64,000 nucleotides of DNA, taken from NCBI GenBank assembly GCA_010093995.1, contig ML992509.1, positions 103,588 to 167,587 on the forward strand, in the 5' to 3' direction. The first letter of the stretch is position 1; every line of letters begins with the position of its first letter. Source of the stretch: Elsinoe ampelina. Taxonomy: Eukaryota. A model generated the notes under the pieces. That model saw only the letters and a list, made by a program, of their open reading frames with translations. It did not search any database and was not told the origin of the DNA. The translations under genes and the position numbers were made by a program. Below, in pieces: positions 33,206-54,454 of the stretch.

Positions 33206-36200
33206 ATGGCCGACGCAAAGGGAGGAGCAGCGAAGACGAATGGCCATTCCAACGGCCATCCGAGCTCGTACGCTGCAAAATTCAACCTCCCCTCACATTT
33301 CATAGGCGGCAATGAGCTTAGCCAGGCTCCGCCGTCAAAAGTGAAGGACTTTGTGGCCGCGCACGATGGTCACACGGTCATTACGAATGTAGGCTGCTTT
33401 TGCTGAGGAGCTGGAGGCGGTTGCTGACTTCCTGGCAGGTTTTGATCGCCAACAACGGTATCGCTGCGGTCAAGGAGATTCGGTCTGTACGCAAGTGGGC
33501 GTACGAGACATTCGGCGATGAGCGAGCGATCCAGTTCACAGTCATGGCCACGCCTGACGATCTGGCTGGAAATGCAGACTACATCAGGATGGCCGACCAA
33601 TACGTGGAAGTACCAGGTGGCACGAACAACAACAACTACGCAAATGTCGAGCTCATTGTGGATATTGCTGAGCGAATGGGTGTACATGCTGTATGGGCAG
33701 GATGGTAAGACTCGATTCAAGCAGCTCAGAAGGCACACAGACTGACCACATTAGGGGACATGCTTCAGAAAACCCAAAGCTCCCAGAGTCCCTCGCTGCC
33801 TCACCCAACAAAATCGTTTTCATCGGTCCTCCCGGTTCCGCGATGCGATCCCTCGGTGACAAGATCTCCTCAACAATCGTCGCACAACACGCAAAGGTAC
33901 CGTGTATACCATGGTCAGGAGAAGGAGTAGACCAGGTCAAGGTAGACAGCAACGGCATTGTCACAGTCGAGGATCACATCTACGACAAAGGCTGCGTACA
34001 CAACCCGGAAGAGGGTCTCGCAGCCGCGAAGAAGATCGGCTTTCCCGTCATGGTCAAGGCGTCAGAAGGAGGAGGTGGTAAGGGTATTCGCAAAGTCGAA
34101 CGAGAGGAGGACTTTGAACAACTCTACAAGGCCGCGGCCAGTGAAATCCCCGGCTCGCCAATCTTCATCATGAAGCTGGCTGGCAGCGCTAGACATTTGG
34201 AGGTACAGCTGCTTGCTGATCAATATGGCAACAACATCTCGCTTTTCGGTCGTGATTGCTCGGTACAGCGGAGACATCAGAAGATCATTGAGGAAGCTCC
34301 AGTCACAATCGCAAATCAGCAAACGTTCCAGGCTATGGAGCGAGCTGCTGTGTCTCTTGGACGACTCGTCGGCTACGTGTCAGCAGGTACCGTCGAATAT
34401 CTCTACTCCCATTCCGACGACAAGTTCTACTTCCTCGAACTCAACCCGCGTCTGCAGGTCGAGCACCCGACCACTGAGATGGTGTCTGGTGTAAACTTAC
34501 CAGCGGCACAGCTGCAGGTAGCCATGGGCATTCCACTTCACAGAATCCGCGATATTCGACTTCTACATGGTGCCGACCCGAGAACCTCCACTGAGATTGA
34601 CTTTGACTTCTCGAAAGAGGGCAGCAAGCTCAACCAGCGACGTCCCCAGCCCAAGGGCCACACGACTGCTTGCCGTATCACATCAGAAGACCCAGGCGAG
34701 GGCTTCAAGCCTTCAAGCGGTGCATTGCACGACTTGAACTTCCGGTCCAGCTCGAATGTCTGGGGATACTTCTCTGTTGGTGCTGCATCGTCCATTCACA
34801 GCTACTCGGATTCACAATTCGGTCACATTTTCGCATACGGCGAGAATCGACAAGCGTCAAGAAAGCACATGGTTGTCGCATTGAAAGAGCTGAGCATCAG
34901 AGGTGACTTCAAGACCACCGTGGAATACCTCATTAAGCTTCTCGAGACACCTGCGTTCGAGGACAACACCATCACAACTGGCTGGCTCGATGAGCTCATC
35001 TCCAAGAAGCTCACAGCCGAGCGTCCAGATCCGATGGTGGCTGTTATCTGCGGAGCGGTAACAAAGGCACACCTTGCGAGTGAGGAATGCATGACAACAT
35101 ACAGGAACAGTCTCGAGAAGGGTCAAGTACCGTCAAAGGACGTGCTCAAGACTGTCTTCCCGGTCGACTTTATCTACGAGGGCATGAGGTACAAATTCAC
35201 CGCCACAAGGTCAAGCGTAGACAGCTACACTCTCTTCATCAATGGCTCGAAGTGCGCAGTTGGCATTCGGCCATTGTCAGACGGAGGCATTCTTGTTCTT
35301 CTCAGCGGCCGCAGTCATAGCGTATACTGGAAGGAGGAAGTAGGAGCCACTCGTCTGTCAGTAGACAGCAAAACCTGTTTACTCGAGCAAGAGAATGACC
35401 CGACGCAACTTCGGACACCTTCGCCTGGTAAGCTGGTCAAATTCACCATCGACAACGGCCAGCACGTCAAGAAGGGTCAACCATTCGCCGAAGTTGAGGT
35501 CATGAAGATGTACATGCCCTTGATTGCGCAAGAGGATGGTATTGTCAACCTCATCAAACAGCCAGGCGCCACTCTTCAAGCCGGTGACATTCTCGGCATA
35601 TTGGCTCTCGACGACCCGACAAAGGTCAAGTCAGCACAGCCCTTCCTGGGCCAATTACCCGATTTCGGTCCTCCACAGGTCACTGGTAACAAGCCGCCTC
35701 AGCGATACACATTCCTCTACAACATTCTCCGCGACATCCTCCAAGGCTTCGACAACCAGGTCATCATGCAGGAGTCGCTGAAGGAGCTCGTCACTGTACT
35801 CAGAGATCCAGAGCTACCATACGGAGAGTGGAATGCGCAAGCATCTGCACTTCATGCTCGTATGCCACAGAAGCTTGACTCTCAGCTTAACCAGATCGTC
35901 GAGAGAGCCCACAGCCGTGGTGCGGAGTTCCCGGCGAAGCAGCTCCAGAGGACATTCTCCCGTTTCCTTGAGGAGAACCTATCTGCTAGCGATGCGGAGA
36001 CCCTCAGGACCAGTCTCGAGCCGCTACTCGTCATTATGAATACCTACGCGGATGGCCTGAAGGCTCATGAGTTCAGCGTCTTCATCTCATTGTTCGAGCA
36101 ATACCATCTCGTCGAGAACCTCTTCTCTGCGAGGCAGAACCGAGACGACGAGGTCATCCTTGCTCTGCGAGATCAGAACAAGGACAAGGTCGCCGAGATC

Positions 36201-39200
36201 GTGCACACCGTTCTTTCGCATACCAGAGTCAGCACGAAGAATAACCTCATCCTCGCCATCCTTGACACGTATCGGCCAAACAGACCTGGTGCGGGAAATG
36301 TGGCCAAGTACTTCCGCCCTGCATTGAAGTTGTTGGCTGAGCTCGAGTCTCGCTCGACCGCAAAGGTCGCACTGAAGGCCCGTGAGGTGCTCATCCAGTG
36401 CGCCATGCCTTCGCTTGAAGAGCGTATGTCGCAGATGGAGCACATCTTGAGATCATCAGTACTTGAGTCGAGATACGGCGAGAGCGGTTGGGATCACAGA
36501 GAGCCTGACTTTGACATCATCAAGGAGGTCGTTGACTCGAAGTACACTGTCTTTGACGTACTTCCACACTTCTTCGCCCATCAAGATCCATACGTGTCGT
36601 TGGCTGCGCTGGAAGTGTACACTCGTCGCGCCTACAGGGCCTACCAGCTCAAGACAATCGAATACAATACCGATATCGAGGCGCCTTTCGTCTTGCTTTG
36701 GGACTTTGCTCTCCGCAAGGTCGGTCAATCAGAGTTCGGTCTGCCTGTTGAAGCTTCGCACCCATCGACACCCGGCACGCCCGCTAGCATCGGCGACTTT
36801 TCTCGTGTCAACTCCTTCTCGGACATTAGCAAGATCAAGGATCAGACTGATGCTCAACCGAGAAGAGGTGCTGTTGTGCCTGTCCAATACCTCGATGAGG
36901 TTGATGAGGCTCTTACCAAGGCACTGGAGTGTATTCCAAGCAACGGCTTCTCCAAGAAGAGAGGCTCAGAGTCGGGCACCTTGATGGCAGATTTGAGCAG
37001 GAAGAGGACCCACCCCACCCAGCAGCCAGAGAACACTGATGATCTGACAGCTGTGGTCAACGTCGCGGTCCGTGACGCTGAGAGCCTGGACGACAACGAG
37101 ATCCTGGAGCGCATCAAGCCTATTGTGGGCGACTTCAAGGCCGAGCTTTACGCTCGCAAGGTCCGTCGCCTGACTTTCATCTGCGGTCACAAGGATGGTA
37201 CTTATCCTGGATACTACACTTTCCGTGGTCCCTCGTACGAGGAAGATGAGAGCATCCGTCACATCGAGCCTGCTCTTGCATTCCAGCTTGAGCTCAGCCG
37301 CCTGAACAAGTTCCAGATCAAGCCTGTCTTCACCGAGAACAGGAATATCCACATTTACGAGGCTACTGGCAAGGGCGTTGAGAATGACAAGCGCTACTTC
37401 ACTCGCGCTGTCGTACGACCAGGCCGTCTCCGAGAGGACATCTCCACGGCGGAGTACATGATCTCGGAGGCTGACAGGCTCATGACCGACATCCTTGATG
37501 CACTTGAGATTATCGGCAACAACAACTCCGACATGAACCACATCTTCATCAACTTCTCAGCTGTCTTCCCATTACAGCCCAAGGAGGTCGAGGAGGCTCT
37601 TGCTGGCTTCCTCGACAGATTCGGTCGCCGTGCATGGAGACTTCGCGTCACGGGCGCTGAGATTCGTCTTATTTGCACAGATCCTAACACTGGCGAGCCA
37701 TACCCACTCCGTGTCATCATCACCAACACATCAGGATACATCATCCAGGTCGAGCTGTACGCTGAGCGCAAGACCGAGAAAGGTAACGAGTGGGTTTTCC
37801 ACAGCATCGGTGGCACGACCAAGATTGGATCGATGCATCTCCGTCCTGTGTCTACCCCATACTCGACCAAGGGTGCTCTCCAACCAAAGAGGTACAAGGC
37901 TCACATCATGGGCACACAATACGTCTACGACTTCCCAGAGCTGTTCCGCCAAGCCGTCGAGAACAGCTGGAAGATCACGACTTCGCAACATCCTCATCTC
38001 AAGGAGAAGCAGCCCAAGCAAGGCGAGTGTATCGAGTATAGCGAGCTCGTGCTGGATGACAGCGATAACCTCGCTGAAGTCAATCGTGATCCTGGCACAA
38101 ACACCATCGGTATGGTCGGATGGATTATCACTGCTCGCACACCTGAGTACCCACGCGGCAGACGCTTCATCATCATCGCCAATGACATCACGTTCAAGAT
38201 TGGTTCTTTCGGTCCGCAGGAAGATAAGTTCTTCCACAAGTGCTCAGAGCTGGCTCGCAAGCTTGGTATCCCCAGGATCTACCTGTCTGCCAACTCCGGT
38301 GCTCGTATCGGTATGGCAGAGGAGCTCATTCCTCACTTTTCCGTGGCTTGGAAGGACCCGAAGAAGCCCGAGGCAGGCTTCGAGTACCTCTACCTTACTC
38401 CGGAGAAGAAGGCGCGCTTCGAGGATGGTGCTCTCAAGCATGTCCTCACCAAAGAGATCAAGGCTGACGGCGAGACTCGACACATGATCACCACCATTGT
38501 TGGTGCTGAGGACGGTCTCGGTGTGGAGTGTCTCAAGGGTTCTGGTCTCATCGCTGGTGAGACTGCTCGTGCGTATGAGGACATCTTCACCATCACCCTG
38601 GTCACCTGCCGATCCGTCGGTATCGGTGCCTACCTCGTCCGTCTTGGTCAGCGTGCTATTCAGATCGAAGGTCAACCTATCATTCTCACCGGTGCGCCCG
38701 CCATCAACAAGCTTCTCGGTCGCGAGGTGTACACATCCAACTTGCAGCTCGGAGGCACTCAGATCATGTACAAGAACGGTGTCTCGCACATGACTGCGAA
38801 CGATGACTTCGAGGGAGTGTCTAAGATTGTCAAGTGGTTGTCGTTCGTGCCGGATAAGAGGGGTCAGCCAGTGCCTATCTCCCCATCAGCAGATGTGTGG
38901 GACAGAGATATCACATACACTCCTCCACAGAAGCAGGCTTACGATGTGCGGTGGTTGATCAACGGCAAGTCGGATGATGAGGGATACCTATCGGGTCTCT
39001 TCGATCGCGGCTCATTCGAGGAGTCACTCGGTGGCTGGGCTCGTACTGTTGTCGTCGGCCGTGCCCGCCTTGGTGGCATTCCAGTCGGTGTCATTGGCGT
39101 TGAGACGCGATCCGTCGAGAACGTCACGCCTGCTGACCCGGCCAACCCCGACTCCATTGAGCAAGTCACTCAGGAAGCCGGTGGTGTCTGGTACCCCAAC

Positions 39201-40239
39201 TCTGCGTTCAAGACTGCTCAGGCGATCCGCGACTTCAATAATGGTGAGCACTTGCCGTTAATGATCCTGGCCAACTGGCGTGGTTTCTCTGGTGGTCAGA
39301 GGGACATGTACAATGAGGTGCTCAAGTATGGTTCGTATATTGTTGATGCGCTCGTCAAGTATGAGCAGCCGATCTTCATTTACATTCCGCCGTTTGGAGA
39401 GCTGCGTGGTGGTTCATGGGTAAGTTCATCCGAAGATTGTCGCAGAGAATCATATACTGACAGGTCTGCAGGTGGTGGTGGATCCTACCATCAATCCTCA
39501 ATTCATGGAAATGTACGCGGATGAAGACGCCCGCGGCGGTGTCCTCGAACCAGAGGGTATCGTCGGCATCAAGTTCCGCAAGGAGCGTCAACTCGAGACC
39601 ATGGCCCGTCTCGACGCCACCTACGGCGACCTCAAAGCCAAGCTCGCCGACCGCAGCCTCACCACCGAGCAACAATCCGAGATCAAGAACCAAATGAACG
39701 CCCGCGAACAACTCCTCCTCCCCGTCTACGCCCAAATCTCCCTCCAATACGCCGACCTCCACGACCGCGCCGGCCGCATGAAAGCCAAAGACACCATCCG
39801 CGCCCCTCTCGTCTGGAAAAACGCCCGTCGCTTCTTCTACTGGCGCCTCCGCCGCCGTCTCAACGAAGAGCACCTCCTCAAGCGCATGGCCTCTGCCGCA
39901 CCCAAGGACGCCTCTCACCCCACCGCTGCGGCTGCCACTGGCTCCTCCGCTTCCGCAGAGGTGCTATCAATCCGCAAGTCCAACCTCACACAGCTCGCTG
40001 CATGGAGCGGCATCACGGGCTTCGAGAACGAGGATCAAAAGGTCGCGCTGTGGTACGAGGAGAACCGCAAGACGGTGCATGAGAAGATTGAGAGGATTAG
40101 GACGGATAGTGTGGCGTATGATGTGGCGAGTTTGTTGAGGGGGAGTAAGGAGGGGGGACTCAAGGGGGTGAGGGATGTGTTGCAGATGTTGCCTGTGGGA
40201 GAGAGGGAGGAGGTTTTGAAGTTTTTGGCGGCGAATTAG
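33206..40239 (+). CDS. ACC1: Acetyl-CoA carboxylase (exons 33206-33388, 33439-33704, 33755-39419, 39472-40239; alternative in-frame ATG at 33188)
   Basis: Biotin carboxylase [16 protein letters not shown] and [13 protein letters not shown]; biotinylation motif EVMKM; carboxyltransferase SANSGARIG and [21 protein letters not shown]; three canonical introns. Confidence 0.98.
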
Positions 40240-41847: not shown

Positions 41848-43089
41848 GAAGAAGGGACAAAGGAAAAGGAGGAACATGTATAAGAGTACGACCTTGAACG
41901 ACAGCGTGTACGGATAGTTACCACTTGCATAGCACGGCGTAAACACGATTGATGAAGACCAGTTACGTCCCATGGAACAAAATTTATTCAACTGAAATGG
42001 TGTTGCATTGATGCCGTGTCGCAAAATGACAAGTTTGGTCAGGTATGGTGATGATTGTGATGAAGAAGCGGAAGTTTCGACTTTGCGGAGAAGCTGTGGT
42101 TGAAAGATCATCAAACCTTGCCCGAGCGTACCGAGATATCGGGGAAGTTTAACGGTTGGTGGATCAACTCTCGGGGTCGTCGATCCATGTGGAACATCTC
42201 TACGTCCGTTAATTAAAAGATTAACACACTGGGAGTCCCAGTATTCGTGCAGTTCCAAACCCTGATTTGAGACGGAGATGGTAGCATGTAGCTCAGCACA
42301 TGACTACTCACTGATCTTCGAAGATCAATTTGAGCTTCCTCGGTGCGGCTCGGAAACCCCAGGGTCTAGACCCATCCATCTATCCACGCGAACGCCTGTT
42401 CCTGACCGCGCTACAGCTCCCCGTCTCCACCACTGTGACCTCATAGTCACGATTCTTCCGACCTGCCGACCACTAGAATCGCGATATGATCGTCCGAAAT
42501 ATTTCAATTCAGTCCAGTGTGACGTCGCGGCCATGCACACCTGGACGCTGCGGCTAATCTGGAACAATACTGAGGCTGCGAGTCCGCAGATCCATCTCGG
42601 ATCAAGTCCGGTCATATCGCCAGATGGAAGCGGTCGTGCCAGGCAGACGCTATAAGTTCCTTACGATGGCGGAGATATCGCTACATGCATAGCTCTCGAG
42701 GCGGCTGAGCACTTTGGCATTGATGCTCGAGCTACGCCGCATCCCACCCTAGGGGGTCGATCTCAACACAGGCAACGTCACTTTCTATGTCGAAGGGGAG
42801 TCTAGATGTCGCAACATGACTGCACATACAACTAGTCGCGTCCATCTTCTTGCACCTACCAGGTCTTAAGACCATTCAAAAGCCGCGATGATACCCGCCA
42901 CATCACGATCCTCATACTCCCTAGTCTTCACGGCAATCGTGCCTGTCCTCGCAGATCAGAGCCACCCACCCTGCACAGAGCTCTTATAAGCCTGGTATAC
43001 ACGGCAAGCGCTCTTACCGCAGAGAGGCCAATCCCGTGGGCCGTCAGGCTTACTCGCTCGTTGAATGTGACCTGTCGAGGGCTCATCCA

Positions 43090-43446
43090 ATGCCGCCGAA
43101 GTCACTGAGCGATGAGTCCATCATCGCCCTTGCTACACTCCTCGTCACAGTAACATTTGGTCCTTTGGGATGGATGATCAATCGCTGGCTGGTAGAGAGG
43201 CGTGAGCAAGCTCCCAAGCGATAACAAATTTTGGGCCCGTCGAGCTGACAAGGTGCAGGTAGACAGAACATACGCCGAGGAGACACTGGTTTTCGATGTG
43301 AGCATAAGTGTTGGGGCTTGAGTAGGTTGTGCTATGTTTGGATAGGTGATAGGTTGCCTCTACTCCCAGTGATCAGCCAACTTCGTGCCACTGAAGGAGA
43401 AGTGCTGTCAATGGAACTGGACAGAGTGGAGCTGGATAGAGTTTGA
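43090..43446 (+). CDS. Single-TM microprotein B (99 aa; exons 43090-43201, 43259-43446)
   Basis: MPPKSLSDESIIALATLLVTVTFGPLGWMINRWLVER|RRQNIRRGDTGFRCEHKCWGLSRLCYVWIGDRLPLL...MELDRVELDRV; intron GTGAGC..GCTGAC..CAG; exon 1 is 112 nt, the same as in A. Confidence 0.75.
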
Positions 43447-44193
43447 AGAGAGCCTGGAGGATAGAAGGCTCCTTGTGTACCATAGACGGGAGATAACGGA
43501 TACGCGAAGGGCGAAGAAGGGGAAACGAGATTGGTGGACGAACCGGAGCTTCGCCCCCCAAGGGACATCGCGCTTGGAGACGGTCGGTGATCGGACGCAG
43601 TCGAGCTGTGTATGAATACTGCCTGTTCTTGAGCTTTTTCTGTAGAAATGATGAAATTTTGCCTGCGGATTGCTATTTAGTCGTCCTCATCTTACGACTT
43701 TTGTCTTGTTGTGGGATGTTTGGGCAGCACTGGGGCTGTGCAATGCGGGCTCCTCCTCCACCAACGAGCTGATGATAGATCACCTTGTAATTATTCACGT
43801 ATGTTGAAGGTTGGGATTGGCTAGTCCCCTGCACAGACAGCCTGCAGACCTTCCCGAAGTGTAAGATGTCCTGTTCATAGCGCTTAGAATCACGATCAAG
43901 GCGGGCGAAGCTCAACATAGCCTCTCTGCCTTAATAGCCTCTTTGCCTTCATAGCTCAGCGGCGGTGTAATGTATTCTATAAAGACTCCATGAAACTCCT
44001 TCATGTCTCCTCATTATCACCCTAAAAAGACTTGGAACAAGCCCACCTTTGCTGCGTGGCTTTCAAAACAAAAACGCGAGGTAGGTACCATGTCCGTCCT
44101 ACACCATTTGTCCGCAGGCACACCTGTTTTGCACCCGTCCTCCTGCCCTAGCAAACATACTTTGACAAGGCATCGCTTCCTTACCTTCACAAC

Positions 44194-44416
44194 ATGTCCA
44201 CAGTATCTATCACTTGGTCGAATGAAGCCATCATCGGTCTCACTACCCTCCTCACCACTGTCGTCATCGCTCCCATTGGCTGGTTCGTTGGACAGATGCA
44301 CTACAGGAGAAGTAAGATACCATCAGCATGGACGAAGACTATTGTACACCTACACTAACGCAGAGAGACACTTCTCCTATCAATGCGATCACCTATGTCC
44401 CGGCATACGAGCTTAA
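44194..44416 (+). CDS. Single-TM microprotein C (56 aa; exons 44194-44311, 44364-44416), possibly truncated
   Basis: MSTVSITWSNEAIIGLTTLLTTVVIAPIGWFVGQMHYRR|KRHFSYQCDHLCPGIRA*; intron GTAAGA..CTAAC..CAG at the homologous position; TATAAAAG at ~43978. Confidence 0.65.
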
Positions 44417-44938
44417 TGCTATGCTATAAGCAAACAAGCATGCCGTAACTGTCAGGACAGCCATACGTGCTTGGAGGCGACGGACGGGAAGACGGGATGC
44501 TGTGGAGGTGGTGAAGGGGCTTGTCCGTTGGGGGAAGGGAAGAGGGTAGACCGGAGAAGGCGTGGGACGATCTTCATCGACCAGTGCGACAAGCATGACT
44601 GAGATTTGGTAGTCACCTCATTTCGACGAGTGGTGGGTTGGTCAGGCGTTAGGAGTCTTCTAACATGAGGTCAATGGAGAGATTTCAACCCACCAGACAC
44701 CCCGATCCCTTGCAACCAGGATCAAATGCTATGAACCCGCCGTCCACTAGTCTCGTGCAAGCCAGGTGATCTCTCAATCGGATCTCATGGAAGAAGAAAC
44801 GTGCCGTAAAATTACACTCTTTGGCGAGACCAGTTCCACTTTCGTCAACTGTCACTGGCGCATTCAGACTATCCGGTCCTGTTCTTCGAGATTGATCGCC
44901 TTGTGCTCTTTCCAACGTTTCGCAAAAAGTATTTTGTC

Positions 44939-47173
44939 CTATGCGTATTGCATGACCCCGTCGTCACCGACTCCATCTCCTTCTGCATCTTCATCTTCGT
45001 CGTCAGGACTGTCTTCACTTTGACCCATCATGTCGCCTCCTACACCCAGCATGTCATCATCATCCGGGTCATCAGCGTCATTATCCTCGTCGTCTTCTCC
45101 TCCCTGATCCTGAGCCTGTTCAGCATGAGCCATCATCTGCCTTCTGAACTCATCCTCTGCATTCGTTGCTGGATATTGACCGTCTGCAGCGTGAGGAGTG
45201 GTATTTGCGGGGCCCGTTGCCTGCAGAGAACCTGGTGGCGGATTGTGCATCTGGCTGCCTCTAGGCGCTCGGTTGGCAACACTTGCTATTACATTACCAT
45301 TCGTATATTGTGGTTTCGATGCTTTCGGCGGCGGGCCTTGATAGAAGATCGGCCACTGGATGCCGCGGCCTTTACGTTTTTTATTAGGGGCAGAAGCGTC
45401 AGACTCGGATGGACGTTTCTCGCCGGTTGTAGGTGCAGGTCCGGAAGCGTAAGCCCCACCATTCAGTGGCGGAGGTTGATACTGTGAAGCTGCTGGGGCA
45501 GATTGTGGTTGCTGCATGTACTGCGGTTGCTGAGGCGTGTATGGCTGTGGAGGGGGGGGATAGCGATAGCCGGGCGGGGGAGCTGCGTATGGCGACGCGT
45601 ATTGGGTCGCCGGCTGAGGGTAGCTAGGCTGTGGAGGAGGTGGTGGCGGTGCATATACAGGTGGTGGAGGAGCTGGCTGAGGGTAAGCTGGCGGCTGGGG
45701 AGGTGGCGGAGCTGGTGCGGGTAGAGGAATGACAGGTTGATCTGGCAAGCAGGGGTGTGATGGAGTCCCTGGAAAAGCAACCTTGACTCTTGCGAGAGTC
45801 TTTAGAATATGATACAGGTCTTCGAATTTTGCAATTGTGCCAAAGCCGAGGCCATGGCGGGTATCTTTGGGCATAACGTCGTCAATCGCTCTGCGTGCAG
45901 CCGAGTCGACCTCGGAGAGATCAGTGAAAGGACCATTGTCCGGTGCAGGAGTCGTGTGACTCTGAGCCGAAGGGGCTGGTGTTGGCGTAACTTGGGCTGG
46001 TGGTTGCGCAGACTGTTGAGGGGTGGCGGTTGCGGGAGCAGCAGCTTGCATCTGTGCCGACGGAGGTTGGCTTGGGATTGGGGTGGATTCGCTTTGAAGA
46101 GGCGGTTGTGAGACGGAAGCTTGTCTCTGCAGAGCTTCCTTGTTCGCCTGTGCGGCGTGCTTGGACAGAGCCTGAGCTGCAACACATCCTTCAACGATGC
46201 AGACATCGAAGCCCCTATCGGTAGCATCACGCACTGTGTCTCGTATACCAGCATTCACACTGAGACCAGCGATGATGAGATTCTTGATACCACGGTTGCG
46301 GATGACAAGATCGAAATCAGTGTAAGCAAATACAGAGGACCGAGGATGGTCAAACATGAGTTCGCTGTACAATGGTGCCAGCTCCTGAACGGGGTCTGTT
46401 CCAATACTTTGCCGCAGTAAGAAGTGGCCAAGAGGACCAGGAGTACCCGGAACTAGATCTTGAGCTGTGAATGTGGGAAGGGGATGGCCAGTCCTTGAAT
46501 TTACCGCAACAGGTTGGATGCGAGCCCGATCAAGCCCGGTGAAGGTTGAGAGATCATGACGGTGAGAGTGACGTGCGTGGTAGATGGGAAACTGGGCACA
46601 TCTGAAAGCATGGAGCAGCTTCTGCAGCGGTGGAAGCATAGTGCGTGCGGTACTGATGGGATGACCAAGCTGATCTAGGAAGCCACCAACGTTGACGACT
46701 TAGCCGGCATTAGCATTCGCAGTCTTCGAGATTTGACGGCAGAAGTCTACATACAGTCCTGCTGCATGTCTACAAGTAACAGGGCAGTAGTATCTGCCCT
46801 GACCAGACCCTCATGAGGAAACCAGTACGGCTCCGCTACGAGCTTCGTCTTCGGAGGCACCGGGTTCGACGGTGCAGGATTCTTGGGACGTCCTCTGGGT
46901 CTCAATTCCTCGTCAGGCAGTTCCTCCCGTAGCAATTGAATGATATCATCCTCCTCGGTATGCTTGGCAAGAAAGGCCTGAGAGACCATCAGCATAGGAC
47001 AGACGCGAGGATGAAGCTCTTACCTGACATCGTCGCAGATGATTCACCTTTCTTTTACCGGAAGACTTTGCGATACGTGCAGAATTGCAATGTCTGCACA
47101 CAACTTGTGGTGACTTGCCATCTCCATCAACAGGTATGAACTCCTGCGTGATGAGCCCAGGTGGGCGAGGCAT
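44939..47173 (-). CDS. BED-like zinc finger / AT-hook / degenerate isochorismatase-family (biuret hydrolase-like) protein with P/Q-rich and acidic regions (710 aa; exons 47173-47024, 46977-46755, 46698-44939)
   Basis: Exon 1 VVCRHC...NHLRRC; exon 2 RPRGRPK and AEPYWFPH...TTALLLVDMQQD; exon 3 FVNVGGFL...GPLGHFLLR...FAYTDFDLVIRNRGIKNLIIAG...DRGFDV. Introns GTAAGA..GCTGAT..CAG and GTATGT..GCTAAT..AAG join in frame (2133 nt). Confidence 0.85.
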
Positions 47174-47880
47174 GTCTCGTGGAGAGCCAAAATGGCGGGA
47201 GGGAGGCTCGCGTCGTGGTAGCTTGGAAAAAGATGAGATACGAGGATGCCCAAGGAGGGAAGGAAAAGCAGCAGGCGGTTGGTGACGCTAGCCCTGAAGA
47301 GGAAAAGACATCAACTTGGCAATTTTGATTTTTTGGCGTTTGCTGTCGTCTCTTCTGATTGGTGCATCTCGCTATACACCACCTCCAAAGACATGGCTCT
47401 CTCACATGCGAGCAGAACAAGCTCCAAGTCGTAAATGTCTGACCGATTGCTTAAGGTTGGTAAAAGCGACAATTAGGGCTTGGGATGGACAATTCCTCCG
47501 ACGCCGTTTCTGTCCATGCAATGCATGTGTCAGCATTTTGCCATGTCATCAGCGGAACAGCTCCGAGATCCGGAAGCTGACGACGATCGTCGTTCGTTGA
47601 TCCGCAAGCCAAAGTCAATTCGCTCACCAATTGTCGGGGATTAACAAATCGCTTACCGATCCCAGCAATGACCTCGAAATCACGTCTTCTCCCCAAAACA
47701 ACGGGCTGCCCCTCCCCGTACATCGTATAGCGTAAGGTTTGTACCTGCTGAGGCAAGATTGCATAAGAGCTTAGCTGTACATCACATGCCGCGACTCTGT
47801 TCCAGAACCCACTGCCAGCTCCCCCACCGCTTCCCAGAGCTCACCGTACCTTATCTACCCCTCCTGCAGCTTTAATATAA

Positions 47881-48733
47881 ATGCCACTTCTCACCCCACC
47901 ACGTCTCCTCCCCAGCATCACCCGCCAACTCCTCCGTCCTGCACACATACCCAGATCCCCAGTCAAACTCCACACCAGACCCCTCACCACAACCCCCAAA
48001 ATGGCCGCCTCCCTCTCCTTCATCGACGCCGTCGTCCACCGCCGCACCATCTACCAACTCACCAAGACCTCCCCGGTCCCCGACTCCCGCATCCTCGAAC
48101 TCGTCGGGCTAGCAGCCAAACACCTCCCCTCGTCCTTCGACAGCCAGACATCCCGCCTCGTCGTCCTCCTCGGCGCCGAACACGACAAGTTCTGGGACTT
48201 TGTCTGGGACGCCATCAAGCCGCACGTCGCGGGGACCGACAAGGAGGCCGGGTCCAAGGGCCGCATAGACGGCTTCAGAGGCGCAAAGGGGAGCGTACGT
48301 TCACCCCTCCTTCCGTCCCCCTTACCCCATGCCTTCTCCTCCCCTCCTCCTCTCCACTCCCGCCCTGAGTACCTCACTGATGATGTATCAATAGATCCTC
48401 TTCTTCGAATCCGACTCGGCCGTCCAAGCCATCGCCTCCCAATGGAAGTCCTACGCCGACAAATTCCCCCAGTGGTCCGAGCACACGTCCGCCATGCACC
48501 AGTACGTGCTCTGGACCGCGCTCGAAGCCGAAGGTCTCGGCGCCAACCTGCAGCACTACAACCCCATCGTCGACGACAGGGTCAAGACCGAGTGGAAGCT
48601 CGACGGCGACTGGCAGCTCAAGGCGCAGTTGGTCTTTGGCGGTTTGCCCGAGGGTAAGAAGAGGGAGGATCTGCTCATGCCGAAGAATGTGGAGGGTAGG
48701 GATGAGAAGTGGGTCAAGGTGTTTGGGGCTTAG
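47881..48733 (+). CDS. Frm2/Hbn1-type nitroreductase family protein (exons 47881 or 48001 to 48294, 48395-48733)
   Basis: RRTIYQL, PSSFDSQTSR.VVLLG.EH.KFWD, GS|ILFFE, F.QWSEHTSAMHQY.LWTALEAEGLGANLQHYNP, W.LKAQLVFG. Confidence 0.92.
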
Positions 48734-48878: not shown

Positions 48879-51800
48879 TCAGATGAACATGGGGCTGCTT
48901 CCAACCCCTGGACTTTTCGAAGGACTCCTCCTCCCCTTACCCCTCAAGAACTCCCCAGCCATCTTCTGCCCAGGACTCTCGCTCTGCTCCCTCAAGCTAC
49001 CAGACGGCTTCTCCCCAAATCCCGACTTGACCTCTCTCCTCTCCCTCAAAGACCTCAGACTCACCACCGGCCTCACCGACCTGGTTCCCCAGGCCTTCTC
49101 CCTCGTCTCGCTGTTGACGTTTTCCTTGCCGGTCCCCGCCACTTCGCGTCCCTCGAAGATTCTCTCTGGCTCCACAGTCGACAAAGCCAACACGCTCGTC
49201 TCTCCATACGCCCCTTCTGGTGAGAAAGCATACGGTCCCTCACTGATCCTTTGCAGGGTCATGTCCTCGAAGACCTCGACCTTGTTCCTCTCCTTCCCGT
49301 CCGGAGTCGGCACCATACGGCGGCGTATGTTGATGCTCGTCTCTCGCATACTCTCTTTGCTGGGTTTGAATCGAGCGCGCAAATCAAAGGAAGACTTGGC
49401 TTTATTCGTGCTTAGGGACGTTTGGGTTCTGTTTGGCGTTGAATGGATGATGGTGGTTTGAGCAGTGGACGTGGATGGATTTCGTGAATGTTGTGGCTGC
49501 GACTGTGCCGGAGTCATCGCTGACCGTGAAGGTGGAACAGGAGCCGGACGAGCGGCAATCGGAAAGAGACTCAAGCCCGAGGTGGACGGAGAGATGGCAC
49601 GAGGTGGAGGTGGTGCAGCAAACGGAGGCGGCGGGGGTGGCACTGGGTCGACCAAATCCTCGTCAGGGATTGCAGGAATAGATGTAGCGTTCTTGCCTGG
49701 TTTGGCGGTACCCGATGAGATCCGGGTCGATGAGGAGATACGGCGTATAGCTCCCATGCTGACCTGACTCATTTTTGTCGTGAGTGCTTTCAGTCCCCTC
49801 TCCCCGGACGGACGGCGAGTGCTCGAAGCACCATCCTCGGCAATGAGACCTACAGACGACTTGCGCTTTCCCATCTTCTGCCTTGTCTCGGTAGACTGTA
49901 AACGAGATGCAGGAGATGAATGGTCCTGGCGAGTGCCGTCGCTTTCCGCATAATGTGGGCTGGGAAAGGTCGAATGAGATGTACCAGTGGAGGACATCCG
50001 CCCGTGCGGATGAGCTTCGTCCAGGTCAAGATCCCTCAGCGTAAAGGCCTTTGTCATGGTACCATCTTCGAATTCGGTCATCTGGTTGGTAGCCCAAGCT
50101 CTCCACTCGTTCGATGGGCGGGAGGCTGTCGGAGCATGTCCCACCTTTGGCTGATCATCGAGGCGAAACTTCTTGACTTCTCTTCCTATGACAGTGACCA
50201 TCGTCCCGTCAGGTACTTCGGGGCTGTTGGATCGAATGGAACGCGGCATATCTCCCCGCGAATAAATGCTGGGCGAGCCAAGCACGAATTGCTCAGATCT
50301 TGACTCGGCAGCAGCTGCAATATTGCTCAGAGGTCCGTGACGAACTGCAATGGGCATTCCCTCATGCTGTGGGGATGTTGGCACAGAGCCAAGTCGATAT
50401 GGGTTATCCTCCTCGATATGTCTCAGAGCCCTTGAGAGACGGGGAGACTCTTCATCAAGTGCATCACGCCATCGGTTCTCGGCCTTTTGTAGTCGCTTGG
50501 TGCGTTGATCATGCTCTGCTTCTGGTGACCGTCGACCAAGTGGGTCTGACAAACGCTTGGAGCGCCCTTCCTGAGATTTTCTCTCAATACTTGGTGCACT
50601 TGATCCGTGTGGCTGGACGTCGTCATGCTCTCCAGAGCCCCCAGTACGCATCGCCACCGGTGTGTTCTCCGAGGCCGAGTCTGGACTAACAGCTCTGATA
50701 GTCGGCTTGCTTGACGTGGTACCACTATTTCTCTTACAAAGAGAAGCAGAATGCTTCGTGATAGTCTCGCAGGCCATTGATGGCGCAGGTCTAGGCGTCT
50801 GTTCAGTCGTACCAGTAGAATGGCGCTGGTCGGGTGGCTGCGTGGATGTGATTTGCATCCGCAAAGCGTCGTACAGGCGCTGGCTTTCTTCCGAGTTGGT
50901 CTGGCGCTTCCGACGAAGATGCAAGCTCGGACGTTCATCTCGATCTGGCATCTCGCCCTGGCTACTGCGATCATGACTTTGAGAGGGGAGCTCACGGATC
51001 GAGGATAAGCGCTTAGATCCCATGGCTGATGATGACAGGGTGCCGGCGATTGTAGAGTTGGTCCAGCTGGTCACTCGAGAATCCGGAGCTGTATTGTCGA
51101 TACTGCCTCTGATAGAACCAAAGTCGACATCTTGTGACCTACGAATAGACAAGGACGGCCTTTGGGACCCCGCGACGGAATCAGCAGCATCATCACCGAG
51201 AGTGTTGACATGGAAGTGAAACTGCTTAGCGGAAACTTGTTGAGCAGGGAGAATTCGTTCATCGGGCTTCTCCCTACTGAACAGCCTTCTGATCCTGCGC
51301 TTGAAAGAACCCGATGGCTTGCGGTCGTTTCTGCCACTGACCTGTTCGGAGAGCACAGGATCTGCCACGGGGTGGGAAAGAGTAAAGTCCTCTTGGTATG
51401 CAAAGTTGAAGGGTGGGATCGACGTGTCGTAACGAACGGGAGCTACCTGAGTAGTAGAAGTGCGATTGGTTCTGCTGCGAAACGGGTTGATGAAGGAACC
51501 GTGTGATCTCAGCCGCCGATGTTTCGACACATCTTCGATTGATTTTCTTCCGTCATGAACCAAGGGTGATCGAGCGCCAGTCTGGGCGTCGCTACGCTGC
51601 TCGAGTAGAGCTTGCGCGGTCGAAATCATGTCGTCGTTCCCCTCTGCCTAGGAAGGATGGTTGACGACGTTTTCATGTTGGCGACCGCCAGATCCTTGAC
51701 GAAGAGCTTCTGCAGCAGATTTGGTCTTTCTCAATAGACGTGATGTGGTGCTCATGGTTTCACGTTTCGTCGGTGTAGTCCTCGCTGCGGCCACTGCTGG

Positions 51801-52793: not shown

Positions 52794-54454
52794 CTAGATG
52801 GCGATGCTGTGGGAGCCACGGATCCTGGAGAAGACCTCGTCGACAACCTCACCAACGACCTCCTTGATGGTGTCCTTGTCCATGCTGAGCTTTGGCATCT
52901 CCTCAATGGCGTTCTCGACGTCCTTGAGGGATGGGAGCTTAATGTGCTTGGATGGGGTTGAGGTGGAGCGGGCGTTGTAGCCTCCCTTGTCAACAATTTC
53001 AGTGAAGTTGGAGCTACCGCCACCGTTCCAGGCGAGGAGCTAGATAGTTATTAGCGATGAACGTGCACGGGAATGTTTGCAGTAACTTACGTTGGCAGTG
53101 TCGCTGGGGACGTCAGTGAGAGCACCCTTGGTGGAGATGGCGAGCAGGTTGGCCTTCAACTCCTTGGGGGAGATCTCGGCGACCGCGTAGGCGGAATCCT
53201 TGCTGGGCTGGAGAGACAGGAGGTAGGCGAGGAGACCAGCAATGTGGGGAGAGGCCATGGAGGTACCGGAGATGGTGTTGATGGCGTACTTGCTGCCAAT
53301 CCAGGTGGACTCAATGTTGAGACCTGGGGCGAAGATGTCGTTGCACTTGCCGTAGTTGGAGAAGAAAGCGCGCTCATCAGCAAGGTTCGAAGCACCGACA
53401 GTTACGGCCTTCTCAGCAGCAGCAGGGGAGTACCTGCAGGAGTCGGCGTTGTCGTTACCGGCAGCGACAGCGAAGTGAATGCCAGCATCCACAGCAGCGT
53501 TGACGGCCTTGTCGAGGAGAGTAGACTTGCCACCGCCGAGAGACATGTTGGCGGCGGAACCCTTGAAGTTCTTCTTCTGGGCCTTGATACTCTTGGTGTG
53601 GGACTCGGCGGCGAACTCAACACCCTTGACGACATCGGACATGGATCCGGAGCCGTTGGAGCGGAGGACCTTGACGGCGATAACATTGGCCTTCTTGGCC
53701 ACACCGTACTTCTTACCAGCTACAGTGCCGGAGCAGTGAGTACCGTGTCCATTTCCATCCACATCCTGATCATTCTGGGGGATGGTCTTTCCCCATGAGG
53801 CACGGCCCTCGAAGTCGACGTGGTCGACGTTGGTGCCGGTGTCAATGACATAGACATCGACCCCCTCACCACCGTCAGCGGCGTGGAGGTATTTGTTGAA
53901 GGTGCCAAAGGTCAGACCGTCCCGGTGGGAGATACGGGCAAGACCCCAAGGAGCGTTCTTCTCGAGCTCGGGAGTGTCCTTGGAGGAGGTGGTGTGGACT
54001 TCCTGGTCCTTCTCGATGAAGTCGACCTTGTTGCATGTCAGCTTCCATGCACATAGTAAGCTTGATCGAGCCGGCTACTCACATCAGGGTGCCTCCTGAT
54101 CTCTGCGAGGACATCCTCGTCAAAGTGGCCGGCATAACCGAGAAGGTTGCCGCCGATGTTGTAGGTGTGCCTCAAACCCTCGAAAACAGTGTCAACGAAA
54201 GGGACTTGGGATCGCTTTCCAATCGACCTCTTCTTCTTCTGGACTGTGGTGTGGAGGTCCTGGACCCATCCGTGATGCTCAGCAGCCAGGCTGTGCGTCA
54301 CATGCTTCTTGAAGACGACAATGTACGAGTCTGGAATGGCCTTTGCATTTTCAGAGGAAACGAGAGGGGCGATCTTGTCGTCAAAGACTCCAGTCTTGAC
54401 AGGAGATGCAGCTGCAAGCAGCGGGAGAGCCAACAGGCTCAGAGCTCCCTTCAT
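52794..54454 (-). CDS. PRB1: Vacuolar subtilisin-like serine protease (Prb1/Alp2/Spm1 type; exons 54454-54083, 54026-53091, 53039-52794)
   Basis: Signal peptide MKGALSLLALPLLAAASP; I9 prodomain (IPDSYIVVFK); APWGLARISHR; catalytic motifs DVYVIDTG, GNGHGTHCSGT and ISGTSMASPH. Confidence 0.95.

What the first reader, a model, noticed from the sequence alone, without database searches (positions are those of the whole stretch)
44939..47173. Zinc finger + AT-hook fused to an apparently dead biuret-hydrolase-like domain: candidate metabolite-sensing transcription factor
Seen in sequence: splicing two canonical introns, which the ORF track splits, gives one 710-aa protein. It has an N-terminal CxxC-x15-H-x3-C motif (VVCRHC...NHLRRC), an AT-hook core (RPRGRPK), a cysteine-hydrolase fold, long P/Q/Y-rich tracts, a bipartite NLS-like KRPSESDASAPNKKRKGR and an acidic tail. 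Established knowledge: isochorismatase-family hydrolases such as BiuH use an Asp-Lys-Cys triad (DMQ.DF; DKPG..AF; G.TTDVCV). Here the Asp is kept (DMQQDF), but Lys reads as His (DHPRSSVF) and the nucleophilic Cys reads as Gly (GLSVNAGI). A P/Q-rich insertion of roughly 90 aa also separates the core from the last helix/strand (GFGTIA). Inference: a pseudoenzyme pocket repurposed as a ligand or oligomerisation module on a DNA-binding regulator. I know of no described fungal regulator with this architecture.
Basis: partly seen in the sequence, partly recalled or inferred. Interest (0 to 1): 0.82.

Follow-up and report, generated by a model that had tools for sequence, protein, structure and literature searches.

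The report
Zinc-finger protein with dead amidase domain
This is a real, spliced fungal gene for a probable nuclear DNA-binding protein whose enzyme-like middle part has lost its catalytic residues but stays strongly conserved, so it looks like an enzyme turned into a sensor or scaffold.

Summary
The 710-aa, three-exon model on the minus strand is correct. Contigs from 4 public runs (3 studies) skip intron 1 at its GT..AG borders, and 3 of the 4 skip intron 2. Named Elsinoe and Myriangium orthologues carry the same architecture.

The central domain is a BiuH-type isochorismatase fold (Pfam E 2.3e-23; Foldseek TM 0.8 to BiuH). It keeps Asp, but Lys142 is His, substrate-binding Lys145 is Ser and Cys175 is Gly. 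It is Ser in the other six family members. Each of these changes inactivates real BiuH (PMC5806882). Even so, the domain is the best-conserved part of the protein.

The N-terminus is a BED-like ββα zinc finger. It has no significant Pfam or PDB match.

Two additions change the picture:
- The same finger is fused to an intact BiuH-like amidase in Dothideomycetes sp. NU457 and in 5 metagenome loci, so catalysis was lost after the fusion.
- DNA-binding-finger plus isochorismatase fusions in filamentous fungi, read as sensors, were already described in 2006 (PMC1702500, WRKY-GCM1 type).

Verdict: a new variant of a known kind. DNA binding, ligand and nuclear localisation remain inferred.

The parts
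47024..47173 (-). Exon 1 (aa 1-50). Starts at the first in-frame ATG and encodes the zinc finger.
   Evidence: Orthologues also start with MPR. Contigs join it to exon 2.
47027..47140 (-). BED-like zinc finger, aa 12-49. F12 lies in the N-terminal strand, C26 and C29 in a hairpin, H45 and C49 in a helix.
   Evidence: Motif scan. F12, V24, C26, H28, C29, H45 and C49 are invariant in 8 of 8 aligned sequences. AF2 gives E12-15, E23-26, E33-35 and H39-48 at pLDDT 85-93. No Pfam hit reaches threshold. Best structural match is ZBED2 2djr at Z 3.9. ESM Atlas: 15 of 30 feature hits are zf-BED.
46978..47023 (-). Intron 1, 46 nt, GT..AG, phase 0.
   Evidence: Skipped by contigs in 4 of 4 runs.
46755..46977 (-). 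Exon 2 (aa 51-124 plus the first base of F125). Holds the helical linker, the AT-hook, and the first strand of the hydrolase fold with D120.
46882..46902 (-). AT-hook core RPRGRPK (aa 76-82).
   Evidence: Present in 4 of 4 Elsinoe sequences and absent from Myriangium and the other relatives. That it matches the HMGA-type core is recalled, not tested.
46768..46770 (-). Codon of D120, equivalent to BiuH Asp36 (retained).
46699..46754 (-). Intron 2, 56 nt, GT..AG, phase 1, inside the Phe codon after DMQQD.
   Evidence: Skipped by contigs in 3 of 4 runs. Six distinct metagenome loci of the intact relatives have an intron at the same position and phase.
44939..46698 (-). Exon 3 (aa 125-710 plus the stop).
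46157..46842 (-). BiuH-like isochorismatase core, N-terminal part (aa 96-305, interrupted by intron 2).
   Evidence: Pfam PF00857, E 2.3e-23. BiuH chains E 9e-25. Foldseek E 2e-22, TM 0.79-0.81. pLDDT mostly above 90.
46346..46348 (-). Codon of H242, in the place of catalytic Lys142 of BiuH. S245 stands in the place of substrate-binding Lys145.
   Evidence: BiuH mutant data from PMC5806882.
46247..46249 (-). Codon GGT of G275, in the place of the nucleophile Cys175 of BiuH.
   Evidence: Contigs of runs X1, X2 and X3 cover it with no difference. It is Ser in the six other members of the group.
45932..46156 (-). A/P/Q-rich insertion inside the fold (aa 306-380).
   Evidence: Composition A 21%, P 20%, Q 17%. 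Absent or short in Myriangium, sp. 11243 and P0167. pLDDT below 50.
45776..45931 (-). Last helix, strand and helix of the fold (aa 381-432, includes GLGFGTIAKF).
   Evidence: MAFFT aligns it with the GGxFG segment of intact relatives. pLDDT 74-95 with H385-399, E412-415 and H416-429.
45422..45775 (-). P/Q/Y-rich disordered tract (aa 433-550).
   Evidence: P 40%, Q 13%, Y 9%. pLDDT below 50 for most of it. 53-58% identity among Elsinoe species.
45371..45418 (-). Bipartite NLS-like KR-x10-KKRK (aa 552-567).
   Evidence: Pattern match. Function is inferred.
45341..45370 (-). Conserved motif GRGIQWPIFY (aa 568-577).
   Evidence: RGRGI[QN]xPIFY is kept in 7 of 7 sequences that reach this region: Elsinoe x4, Myriangium, P0153 and P0008. 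Function unknown.
44942..45115 (-). Acidic tail (aa 653-710).
   Evidence: 26 D/E and 0 K/R in 58 residues. The intact relative P0167 also ends in an acidic run.

Best explanation
The locus encodes one expressed 710-aa protein of an Elsinoe-type fungus. Residues 84-307 are identical to a record named Elsinoe ampelina.

Proposed parts and roles:
- An N-terminal BED-like zinc finger, with an AT-hook in Elsinoe only. This most likely binds DNA.
- A central BiuH-type cysteine-hydrolase fold that can no longer hydrolyse. This most likely acts as a non-catalytic module, either a small-molecule or metal sensor or an oligomerisation platform.
- A P/Q/Y-rich tract and an acidic tail, which most likely give transcriptional output.
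- A bipartite basic motif, which most likely gives nuclear import.

The protein descends from an older fusion of the same finger to an active BiuH-like amidase, a form that survives in other Dothideomycetes. Catalysis was lost, the pocket was remodelled, and long disordered tracts were added in the lineage leading to Elsinoe, Myriangium and their kin.

Shown here: the gene model, splicing, fold, residue replacements, conservation pattern, and the existence of intact-triad relatives with the same finger. Inferred: loss of activity (from published BiuH mutants), DNA binding, nuclear localisation, sensing, and trans-activation.
For: Gene model and expression:
- Both introns are skipped in contigs of public runs.
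- Named orthologues of 720-721 aa in E. batatas and E. fawcettii, and of 537 aa in Myriangium duriaei, carry the finger plus the domain.

Fold:
- PF00857, E 2.3e-23.
- The best solved relatives are BiuH chains, E 9e-25.
- AF2 core pLDDT is above 90, and Foldseek matches BiuH at E 2e-22 with TM 0.79-0.81.

Dead site:
- H242, S245 and G275 stand at the Lys142, Lys145 and Cys175 positions.
- In BiuH, C175S abolishes activity but still binds biuret. Lys142 tolerates only Arg; K142H is folded with Tm 68 C against 56 C. Lys145 variants are inactive (PMC5806882, passages read).
- Of 195 aligned domains, 133 are D-K-C. D-H-[S/G] occurs in 8 rows: 7 from this group (the window and its identical fragment P0003 both counted) and 1 unrelated.

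Constraint without catalysis:
- The core is 92-93% identical among Elsinoe species, against 48-58% in the P/Q tracts and 21-30% in the tail.
- 7 of the 9 residues listed in PMC5806882 as conserved in the family's active site are kept: D, Q, F, F, T, G, T.
- The nucleophile position drifts between Ser and Gly in sequences that are 98% identical across the core.

Origin:
- Exon 1 is 59% identical to the N-terminus of P0167, pairwise E 7e-19. P0167 has the intact motifs DMQRDF, EKPGRGAF and GVTTDVCV.
- 5 of 7 metagenome loci with the same finger show intact Lys and Cys. The other 2 contigs end before those positions.
- The dead group nests inside the fungal BiuH-like clade (27 rows, SH-aLRT 100) on a stem of 1.14 substitutions per site, against a median tip of 0.33.
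- A tree that holds it together with P0167 has a log-likelihood 60.8 units higher than the free quick search found, p-AU 0.94.

Regulator-like features:
- The finger model has an N-terminal strand carrying the invariant F12, a Cys hairpin, and a helix carrying H45 and C49. This is the arrangement described for BED fingers in PMC1702500 (section 6).
- Also present are the AT-hook core, an NLS-like motif, and a tail with 26 acidic and 0 basic residues.
Against: - Nothing here shows DNA binding, nuclear localisation, ligand binding or an effect on transcription.
- The finger has no Pfam match at threshold; the best is DUF7685 at E 0.019-0.034. It has no sequence match to a solved structure.
- Its structural matches are weak: ZBED2 at Z 3.9 is tied with RNA-binding C2H2-type fingers of SERRATE/ARS2, a spliceosome chain and TUT4 at Z 3.6-3.9. 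Foldseek found nothing at E <= 0.001.
- The AT-hook is absent outside Elsinoe, so it cannot be essential to the family's function.
- The pocket is heavily remodelled. Relative to BiuH, Glu84 becomes His, and relative to the intact relatives TREGHRPD becomes RHSHRHD and GRLL becomes GHFL. No ureide-type ligand can therefore be assumed.
- Six of seven members carry Asp, His and Ser at the three triad positions. A different chemistry in those species is not formally excluded.
- The neighbouring genes are acetyl-CoA carboxylase, a nitroreductase-family gene and a subtilase. They give no hint of a regulated pathway.
- Selection was judged from protein identity only. No dN/dS could be computed.
Confidence: 0.6

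Rival explanations
1. The protein is still an enzyme. The Asp-His-Ser set found at the three triad positions in most members works as a new serine-type triad, and the zinc finger only tethers or regulates the enzyme.
For: - Six of seven members of the group have D, H and S at the Asp36, Lys142 and Cys175 positions.
- The pocket residues D, Q, F, F, T, G, T are kept.
- The domain is highly conserved.
- Relatives with the same finger are intact amidases.
Against: - The window's own protein has Gly at the nucleophile position, confirmed by contigs of three runs. It is otherwise 98% identical in the core to the Ser-bearing E. batatas protein, so the Ser is dispensable.
- In BiuH, both C175S and K142H are inactive (PMC5806882).
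- The substrate-binding Lys145 is also lost.
Confidence: 0.07
2. The protein is not a transcription factor. The finger binds RNA or protein, and the dead fold is an oligomeric scaffold in an RNA-processing, chromatin or condensate-forming complex. The P/Q/Y-rich tract would drive assembly rather than activation.
For: - Structural neighbours of the finger at the same weak Z include RNA-binding fingers: SERRATE 3ax1 at Z 3.9, ARS2 6f7j at Z 3.6, TUT4 8ost at Z 3.6 and a spliceosome chain 6qx9 at Z 3.8.
- The tract at aa 433-550 is 40% Pro, 13% Gln and 9% Tyr, which resembles a low-complexity assembly domain.
- BiuH is a tetramer with an active site completed by the neighbouring subunit (PMC5806882).
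Against: - ESM Atlas feature hits are mainly zf-BED (15 of 30), and structure hits align to zf-BED parts.
- The top VIA-align row is a BED finger.
- The AT-hook core in Elsinoe is a DNA minor-groove motif (recalled).
- The acidic tail and the parallel FAR1/WRKY-type DNA-binding fusions to the same enzyme clade (PMC1702500) point to DNA.
Confidence: 0.2
3. The locus is a decaying remnant: a formerly useful enzyme-regulator fusion that is drifting, with the transcript persisting but the product having no function.
For: Loss of three catalytic or binding residues. A long stem branch of 1.14 substitutions per site. Large low-complexity insertions.
Against: - The open frame of 710 codons is intact and is kept across four Elsinoe species, Myriangium, sp. 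11243 and an environmental relative.
- The core is 92-93% identical among Elsinoe and 55-58% identical to Myriangium and sp. 11243, far above the flanking tracts.
- Short motifs such as RHSHRHDLST and RGRGIxxPIFY are invariant across the group.
- The gene is spliced correctly.
Confidence: 0.05

Closest known systems
Biuret hydrolase BiuH of Rhizobium leguminosarum (PDB 6AZO, 6AZN, 5BK6; PMC5806882), with TrtA and RutB of the isochorismatase-like cysteine hydrolases
   Same: Same fold and closest sequence: E 9e-25, 33% identity, Foldseek TM 0.79-0.81. Asp36, Gln38, Phe41, Phe148, Thr151, Gly169 and Thr179 equivalents are kept.
   Different: - Lys142 is His, Lys145 is Ser, Cys175 is Gly and Glu84 is His.
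- There is an insertion of about 87 residues before the last helix.
- It is fused to a zinc finger, disordered tracts and an acidic tail, and is eukaryotic with introns.
- It is predicted to be non-catalytic.
WRKY-GCM1/FAR1-type DNA-binding domain fused to isochorismatase in filamentous fungi (Babu et al. 2006, PMC1702500). Examples found here: P0011 Penicillium herquei, P0169 Arachnomyces, P0174 Phaeomoniella.
   Same: An N-terminal zinc-chelating DNA-binding-type domain precedes a domain of the same fungal BiuH-like clade. The published idea is that the enzyme domain serves as a small-molecule sensor.
   Different: - The finger here is a ββα BED-like finger, not the four-stranded WRKY-GCM1/FAR1 domain. 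It has no FAR1 Pfam hit and the model has a C-terminal helix.
- Those fusions mostly keep D-K-C, whereas this one has lost Lys and Cys.
- None of them has been tested experimentally as far as my searches show.
Same-finger fusion with an intact amidase: P0167 (Dothideomycetes sp. NU457, 363 aa) and metagenome loci L003-L007
   Same: Homologous finger at 59% identity. Same domain order, same phase-1 intron after DMQ[QR]D, and an acidic C-terminus.
   Different: The triad and Lys145 equivalent are intact (K, R and C at those positions). There is no P/Q insertion, no long disordered tract, no AT-hook, and it is half the length.
BED zinc fingers (ZBED1 2CT5, ZBED2 2DJR; Pfam PF02892)
   Same: - Cx2C ... 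Hx3[HC] ligand pattern.
- A hydrophobic residue two positions before the first Cys (V24).
- An aromatic residue in an N-terminal strand (F12).
- Ligands 3 and 4 lie on a helix (features as described in PMC1702500).
- The top VIA-align hit is ZBED2, and ESM Atlas hits are zf-BED.
   Different: No Pfam zf-BED hit. All structural scores are below the level at which chance matches are common (Z 3.9 and 2.7; Foldseek E 2.8). The last ligand is Cys.

Membership tests
Isochorismatase-like cysteine hydrolases (PF00857), BiuH subgroup | Sequence and fold of the isochorismatase domain | tested here: met
   Pfam 83.6 bits against a cut-off of 27. BiuH chains E 9e-25. Foldseek E 2e-22, TM 0.79-0.81.
Isochorismatase-like cysteine hydrolases (PF00857), BiuH subgroup | Catalytic Asp (BiuH Asp36) | tested here: met
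   D120 in DMQQDF.
Isochorismatase-like cysteine hydrolases (PF00857), BiuH subgroup | Catalytic Lys (BiuH Lys142) | tested here: not met
   H242. K142H BiuH is inactive (PMC5806882).
Isochorismatase-like cysteine hydrolases (PF00857), BiuH subgroup | Nucleophilic Cys (BiuH Cys175) | tested here: not met
   G275 in the window, Ser in the six other group members.
Isochorismatase-like cysteine hydrolases (PF00857), BiuH subgroup | Biuret-binding Lys145, and Gln215 from the neighbouring subunit | tested here: not met
   S245 stands at the Lys145 position. The Gln215 position aligns to H406 in MAFFT only, after the insertion, so that part is less certain.
Isochorismatase-like cysteine hydrolases (PF00857), BiuH subgroup | Amide hydrolase activity | not testable with these tools
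   Needs an enzyme assay.
BED zinc finger (PF02892) | Ligand signature Cx2C-xn-Hx3-5[H/C], with a hydrophobic residue two positions before Cys1 and an upstream aromatic residue | tested here: met
   C26, C29, H45, C49, V24 and F12 are invariant in 8 of 8 sequences.
BED zinc finger (PF02892) | Match to the family profile | tested here: not met
   No zf-BED hit at E <= 1 or E <= 5. Only DUF7685 at E 0.019-0.034, below its cut-off.
BED zinc finger (PF02892) | Fold: N-terminal strand, Cys hairpin and ligand-bearing helix, similar to solved BED fingers | tested here: inconclusive
   The AF2 topology fits. ZBED2 2djr scores Z 3.9, rmsd 4.0, 65 aligned and ranks first. ZBED1 2ct5 scores Z 2.7, and Foldseek gives E 2.8. 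All are within the range of chance matches.
BED zinc finger (PF02892) | Zinc and DNA binding | not testable with these tools
   Needs metal analysis and EMSA or DAP-seq.
AT-hook | Core R-G-R-P flanked by basic residues | tested here: met
   RPRGRPK at aa 76-82. Kept in 4 of 4 Elsinoe sequences and absent in the other relatives. The consensus itself is recalled.
WRKY-GCM1/FAR1 plus isochorismatase fusion proteins (PMC1702500) | WRKY-GCM1/FAR1 four-stranded domain at the N-terminus | tested here: not met
   No FAR1 or WRKY hit in the window protein, whereas P0011 gives FAR1 at 27.4 bits. The model has ββα topology.
WRKY-GCM1/FAR1 plus isochorismatase fusion proteins (PMC1702500) | DNA-binding-type finger followed by a domain of the fungal BiuH-like clade | tested here: met
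   Domain order. The dead group nests in the same fungal clade as the FAR1-fused proteins.

The most novel reading that the evidence does not exclude
The dead group is a eukaryotic 'one-component' regulator caught after the switch from enzyme to sensor. The catalytic pocket has been rebuilt into a histidine-lined site: H168, H170, H172, H216 and H242 around D120, four of them new relative to the intact relatives. This site would bind a metal ion or a new metabolite and gate the BED-like finger. The intact-triad relatives with the same finger would be living intermediates that both hydrolyse the ligand and regulate in response to it. Together the two forms would be a natural matched pair for studying how an enzyme becomes a transcriptional sensor in fungi.
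Probability: 0.25. Interest if true: 0.72.

Novelty: new variant of a known kind. Interest (0 to 1): 0.5.

Why it matters
Ligand-sensing transcription factors built from enzyme folds are common in bacteria but poorly documented in fungi.

Here one fungal lineage offers both states of the same fusion. One has a zinc finger plus an intact BiuH-like amidase. The other has the same finger plus a conserved but catalytically dead copy with added activation-like tracts. That gives a direct experimental handle on the 2006 proposal, apparently never tested, that finger-isochorismatase fusions are small-molecule-responsive regulators.

It also corrects public gene models. The named E. ampelina record is a 224-aa partial protein, the E. 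australis model lacks the finger exon, and the sp. 11243 model is truncated.

The organism group causes scab and anthracnose of crops, but nothing here links the gene to disease.

Tried and rejected
- **RNA runs.** No listed run is on record as RNA. The four runs laid are contigs, so no statement is made on expression level, strand or transcript ends.
- **Homodimer prediction** of residues 95-432: no verdict (scores 0.10 and 0.03 against a mark of 0.42). It counts neither for nor against oligomerisation. Searches found the queue full.
- **Word-based search with the whole exon-3 protein** returned only 2 proteins among 8000 candidates, because low-complexity words crowded the list.
- **Word-based search with the finger of P0167 alone** returned only P0167 itself out of 3 candidates. 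The range of the finger family is therefore not established by that tool.
- **Profile of the N-terminus against PDB sequences** matched only through the first strand of the hydrolase fold. Nothing matched the finger.
- **Foldseek with the finger-only model** gave no hit at E <= 0.001.
- **First quick LG+G4 tree** placed the dead group on a long branch beside divergent tandem-domain proteins. I treat this as long-branch attraction, for two reasons. A constrained tree with P0167 had a higher likelihood. A site-heterogeneous model on 41 rows put the group inside the fungal clade.
- **Unfinished or unresolved tree work.** The careful search and the second constraint test did not finish in time. 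The exact sister of the dead group is unresolved.
- **Dropped rows.** P0153 and P0008 dropped out of the hmmalign table and the trees, since their domain hits did not pass my length filter. Their residues come from MAFFT only.
- **Earlier findings store** was not open. **No whole genome** is held for this window, so paralogues with an intact triad in the same genome could not be sought.
- **Neighbouring genes** give no pathway hint.
- **hAT-transposase remnant** was considered and rejected. No transposase domain was found in the protein, and there is no second copy of the finger in the window.
- **Literature.** Searches for a characterised member found only PMC1702500 as relevant: (DUF7685, 0 papers; Elsinoe plus isochorismatase, 0 papers). 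Subscription-only papers are not covered.
Full report
**Observation.**
The gene lies on the minus strand. I read the region and joined exons 47173..47024, 46977..46755 and 46698..44939 in a script. This gave a 2133-nt CDS and a 710-aa product with a single terminal stop. The introns are 46 nt (47023..46978) and 56 nt (46754..46699), and both are GT..AG.

Public-run contigs were laid on 44800-47300. All 4 runs, from 3 studies, hold a contig that skips intron 1, and 3 of 4 hold one that skips intron 2. The borders are exact and there are no other differences, apart from one G>A at 47082 in run X6. In run X3 the contig that skips intron 1 runs 15 nt into intron 2 and stops, so some unspliced molecules may exist. 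The runs are not on record as RNA; the intron-less contigs are themselves the sign of mRNA.

A named record, 'nicotinamidase-like amidase, partial [Elsinoe ampelina]' (P0003, 224 aa), is identical to residues 84-307 of the product.

**Domain content.**
- Exon 3 matches Pfam Isochorismatase at E 2.3e-23.
- Among solved structures it matches BiuH of Rhizobium leguminosarum best, at E 9e-25.
- I could not hand in the joined window protein, so I modelled the 98%-identical E. batatas orthologue P0158 with a 61-row alignment.
- In that model the core (about residues 100-300) is mostly above pLDDT 90, residues about 330-380 are below 50, and the last helix, strand and helix (385-429) are confident again.
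- Foldseek returns BiuH chains first (E 2e-22, TM 0.79-0.81, 33% identity), then TrtA and RutB.

**Catalytic residues.**
Three alignments agree (phmmer, hmmalign, MAFFT):

| BiuH residue | Window residue |
|---|---|
| Asp36 | D120 (kept) |
| Lys142 | H242 |
| Lys145 | S245 |
| Cys175 | G275 |
| Glu84 | H168 |

I read passages of the BiuH paper (PMC5806882). It reports the following:
- Cys175Ser abolishes activity but still binds biuret.
- Lys142 can be replaced only by Arg, with about 25-fold loss. Lys142His is folded and more stable, with Tm 68 C against 56 C.
- Lys145 variants are effectively inactive.
- Gln215 of the neighbouring subunit completes the site of a tetramer.

Seven of the nine residues that paper lists as conserved in the family are kept here. 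Among 195 aligned domains from my searches, 133 are D-K-C. D-H-[S/G] occurs in 8 rows: 7 belong to this group (the window and its identical fragment both counted) and 1 (P0028) is an unrelated case.

**Orthologues and constraint.**
- The group comprises E. batatas (720 aa), E. fawcettii (721 aa), E. australis (728 aa, model without the finger exon), Myriangium duriaei (537 aa), Dothideomycetidae sp. 11243 (289-aa model and a 581-aa Logan member) and an unnamed 468-aa fragment.
- All of them have His at the Lys position.
- All except the window have Ser at the Cys position.
- The window's GGT codon is covered without difference by contigs of three runs.
- Per-region identity to E. fawcettii and E. 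australis is 93% and 92% in the core and 92% in the finger. It is 55% and 48% in the insertion, 58% and 53% in the P/Q/Y tract, and 30% and 21% in the tail.
- The dead fold is therefore the most constrained part, while the former nucleophile position is free to change.
- The AT-hook core RPRGRPK occurs only in Elsinoe.
- The motif RGRGI[QN]xPIFY is kept in all seven sequences that reach it.

**The finger.**
Ligands C26, C29, H45 and C49, together with F12 and V24, are invariant in 8 of 8 aligned sequences. AF2 gives strand 12-15, hairpin 23-26/33-35 and helix 39-48, at pLDDT 85-93 in the full model and 76-85 alone. This is the arrangement described for BED fingers in PMC1702500 (section 6).

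Formal membership is not shown:
- No Pfam zf-BED hit.
- No PDB sequence hit.
- Foldseek finds nothing at E <= 0.001, with ZBED1 at rank 10 and E 2.8.
- VIA-align ranks ZBED2 first, but at Z 3.9, tied with RNA-binding fingers.
- ESM Atlas hits are mostly zf-BED, 15 of 30 at score 0.92. They include Ascomycota clusters where a similar N-terminal module precedes TENA/THI-4 or DUF3237 domains. These are leads only.
- A Zymoseptoria brevis protein (P0184) carries two copies of the finger, 40% identical with pairwise E 4e-9.

**Origin.**
- A profile of the N-terminus found P0167 (Dothideomycetes sp. NU457, 363 aa). Its finger is 59% identical to exon 1, with E 7e-19.
- The finger in P0167 is followed by an intact domain (DMQRDF, EKPGRGAF, GVTTDVCV) and a short acidic tail.
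- A metagenome scan gave 7 loci with the same finger. Five (L003-L007; L004 and L005 read alike) show intact Lys and Cys, and two contigs end earlier.
- All six distinct loci have a GT..AG phase-1 intron at the position of the window's intron 2. Read-through annotations of other fungal BiuH-like genes suggest that this intron is older than the fusion.
- With LG+C20 on 41 rows, the dead group (SH-aLRT 100) nests in the fungal BiuH-like clade (27 rows, SH-aLRT 100) on a 1.14 stem. Its sister is unresolved.
- Holding it with P0167 gave a better likelihood than the free quick search.
- The same fungal clade holds FAR1-type finger fusions: P0011 with FAR1 at 27.4 bits, P0169 and P0174.

**Prior knowledge.**
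Babu et al. 2006 (PMC1702500, section 15 read) reported WRKY-GCM1 domains fused to isochorismatase in several filamentous fungi and suggested a sensor role. My literature searches found no experimental follow-up and no description of the BED-like or dead variant.

**Interpretation.**
The most likely reading is a nuclear DNA-binding regulator. Its enzyme-derived module no longer catalyses and instead senses a ligand or organises oligomers. It evolved from an enzyme-regulator fusion (confidence 0.6).

The rivals are as follows:
- RNA- or protein-binding scaffold: 0.2.
- Residual Asp-His-Ser catalysis: 0.07.
- Decaying remnant: 0.05.

The histidine-rich rebuilt pocket (H168, H170, H172, H216, H242) prompts a metal- or new-ligand-sensor hypothesis. 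I could not test it for lack of model coordinates.

**Verdict.**
This is a new variant of a known kind of architecture, with an instructive intact/dead pair. Interest 0.5.

Noticed in passing
window 33672-40239 (+): Large acetyl-CoA carboxylase gene. Pfam finds ACC_central, Carboxyl_trans, biotin carboxylase and biotin-lipoyl domains. It is split over two frames near 39424-39524, presumably by an intron.
   Followed up: partly
window 47881-48657 (+): Nitroreductase-family ORF (PF00881, E 7.8e-6). It is transcribed divergently from the zinc-finger gene, with about 700 bp between the two starts. No functional link is shown.
   Followed up: partly
window 48879-51647 (-) and 53040-54074 (-): A 922-aa open frame with no Pfam match, and a subtilase (Peptidase_S8, E 1.3e-40).
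   Followed up: partly
window 42810-44800 (approx.): The 4481-nt contig of run X1 that carries the spliced gene continues about 1990 nt beyond 44800, past the stop codon. This is either a long 3' region or a merged neighbouring transcript.
   Followed up: no
P0184 (Zymoseptoria brevis, 560 aa) and ESM Atlas clusters: The same MPRPP...CxHC...HLxxC finger occurs twice at the N-terminus of a protein named heme-oxygenase-like. Atlas clusters of Ascomycota show a similar N-terminal module before TENA/THI-4 (152 members) and DUF3237 domains. The finger may be a general adaptor for enzyme-like domains in fungi.
   Followed up: partly
P0028 (255 aa); P0010 and P0170: There are independent losses in the fungal BiuH-like clade. 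P0028 also reads D-H-S but has no finger and sits elsewhere in the tree. The FAR1-like fusions P0010 and P0170 (the latter named Dirinaria sp.) keep Lys but have Ser for Cys.
   Followed up: partly
Public gene models P0003, P0002, P0005, P0106, P0150: Several public annotations of this family are wrong. The E. ampelina record is a 224-aa partial. The E. australis model starts after the finger exon. The sp. 11243 model is truncated. Two environmental models read through the phase-1 intron after DMQRD.
   Followed up: yes
window 47082: Run X6 (organism B) shows G>A on the plus strand inside the finger exon, in one contig at depth 4.8. It may be a strain difference or an error.
   Followed up: no
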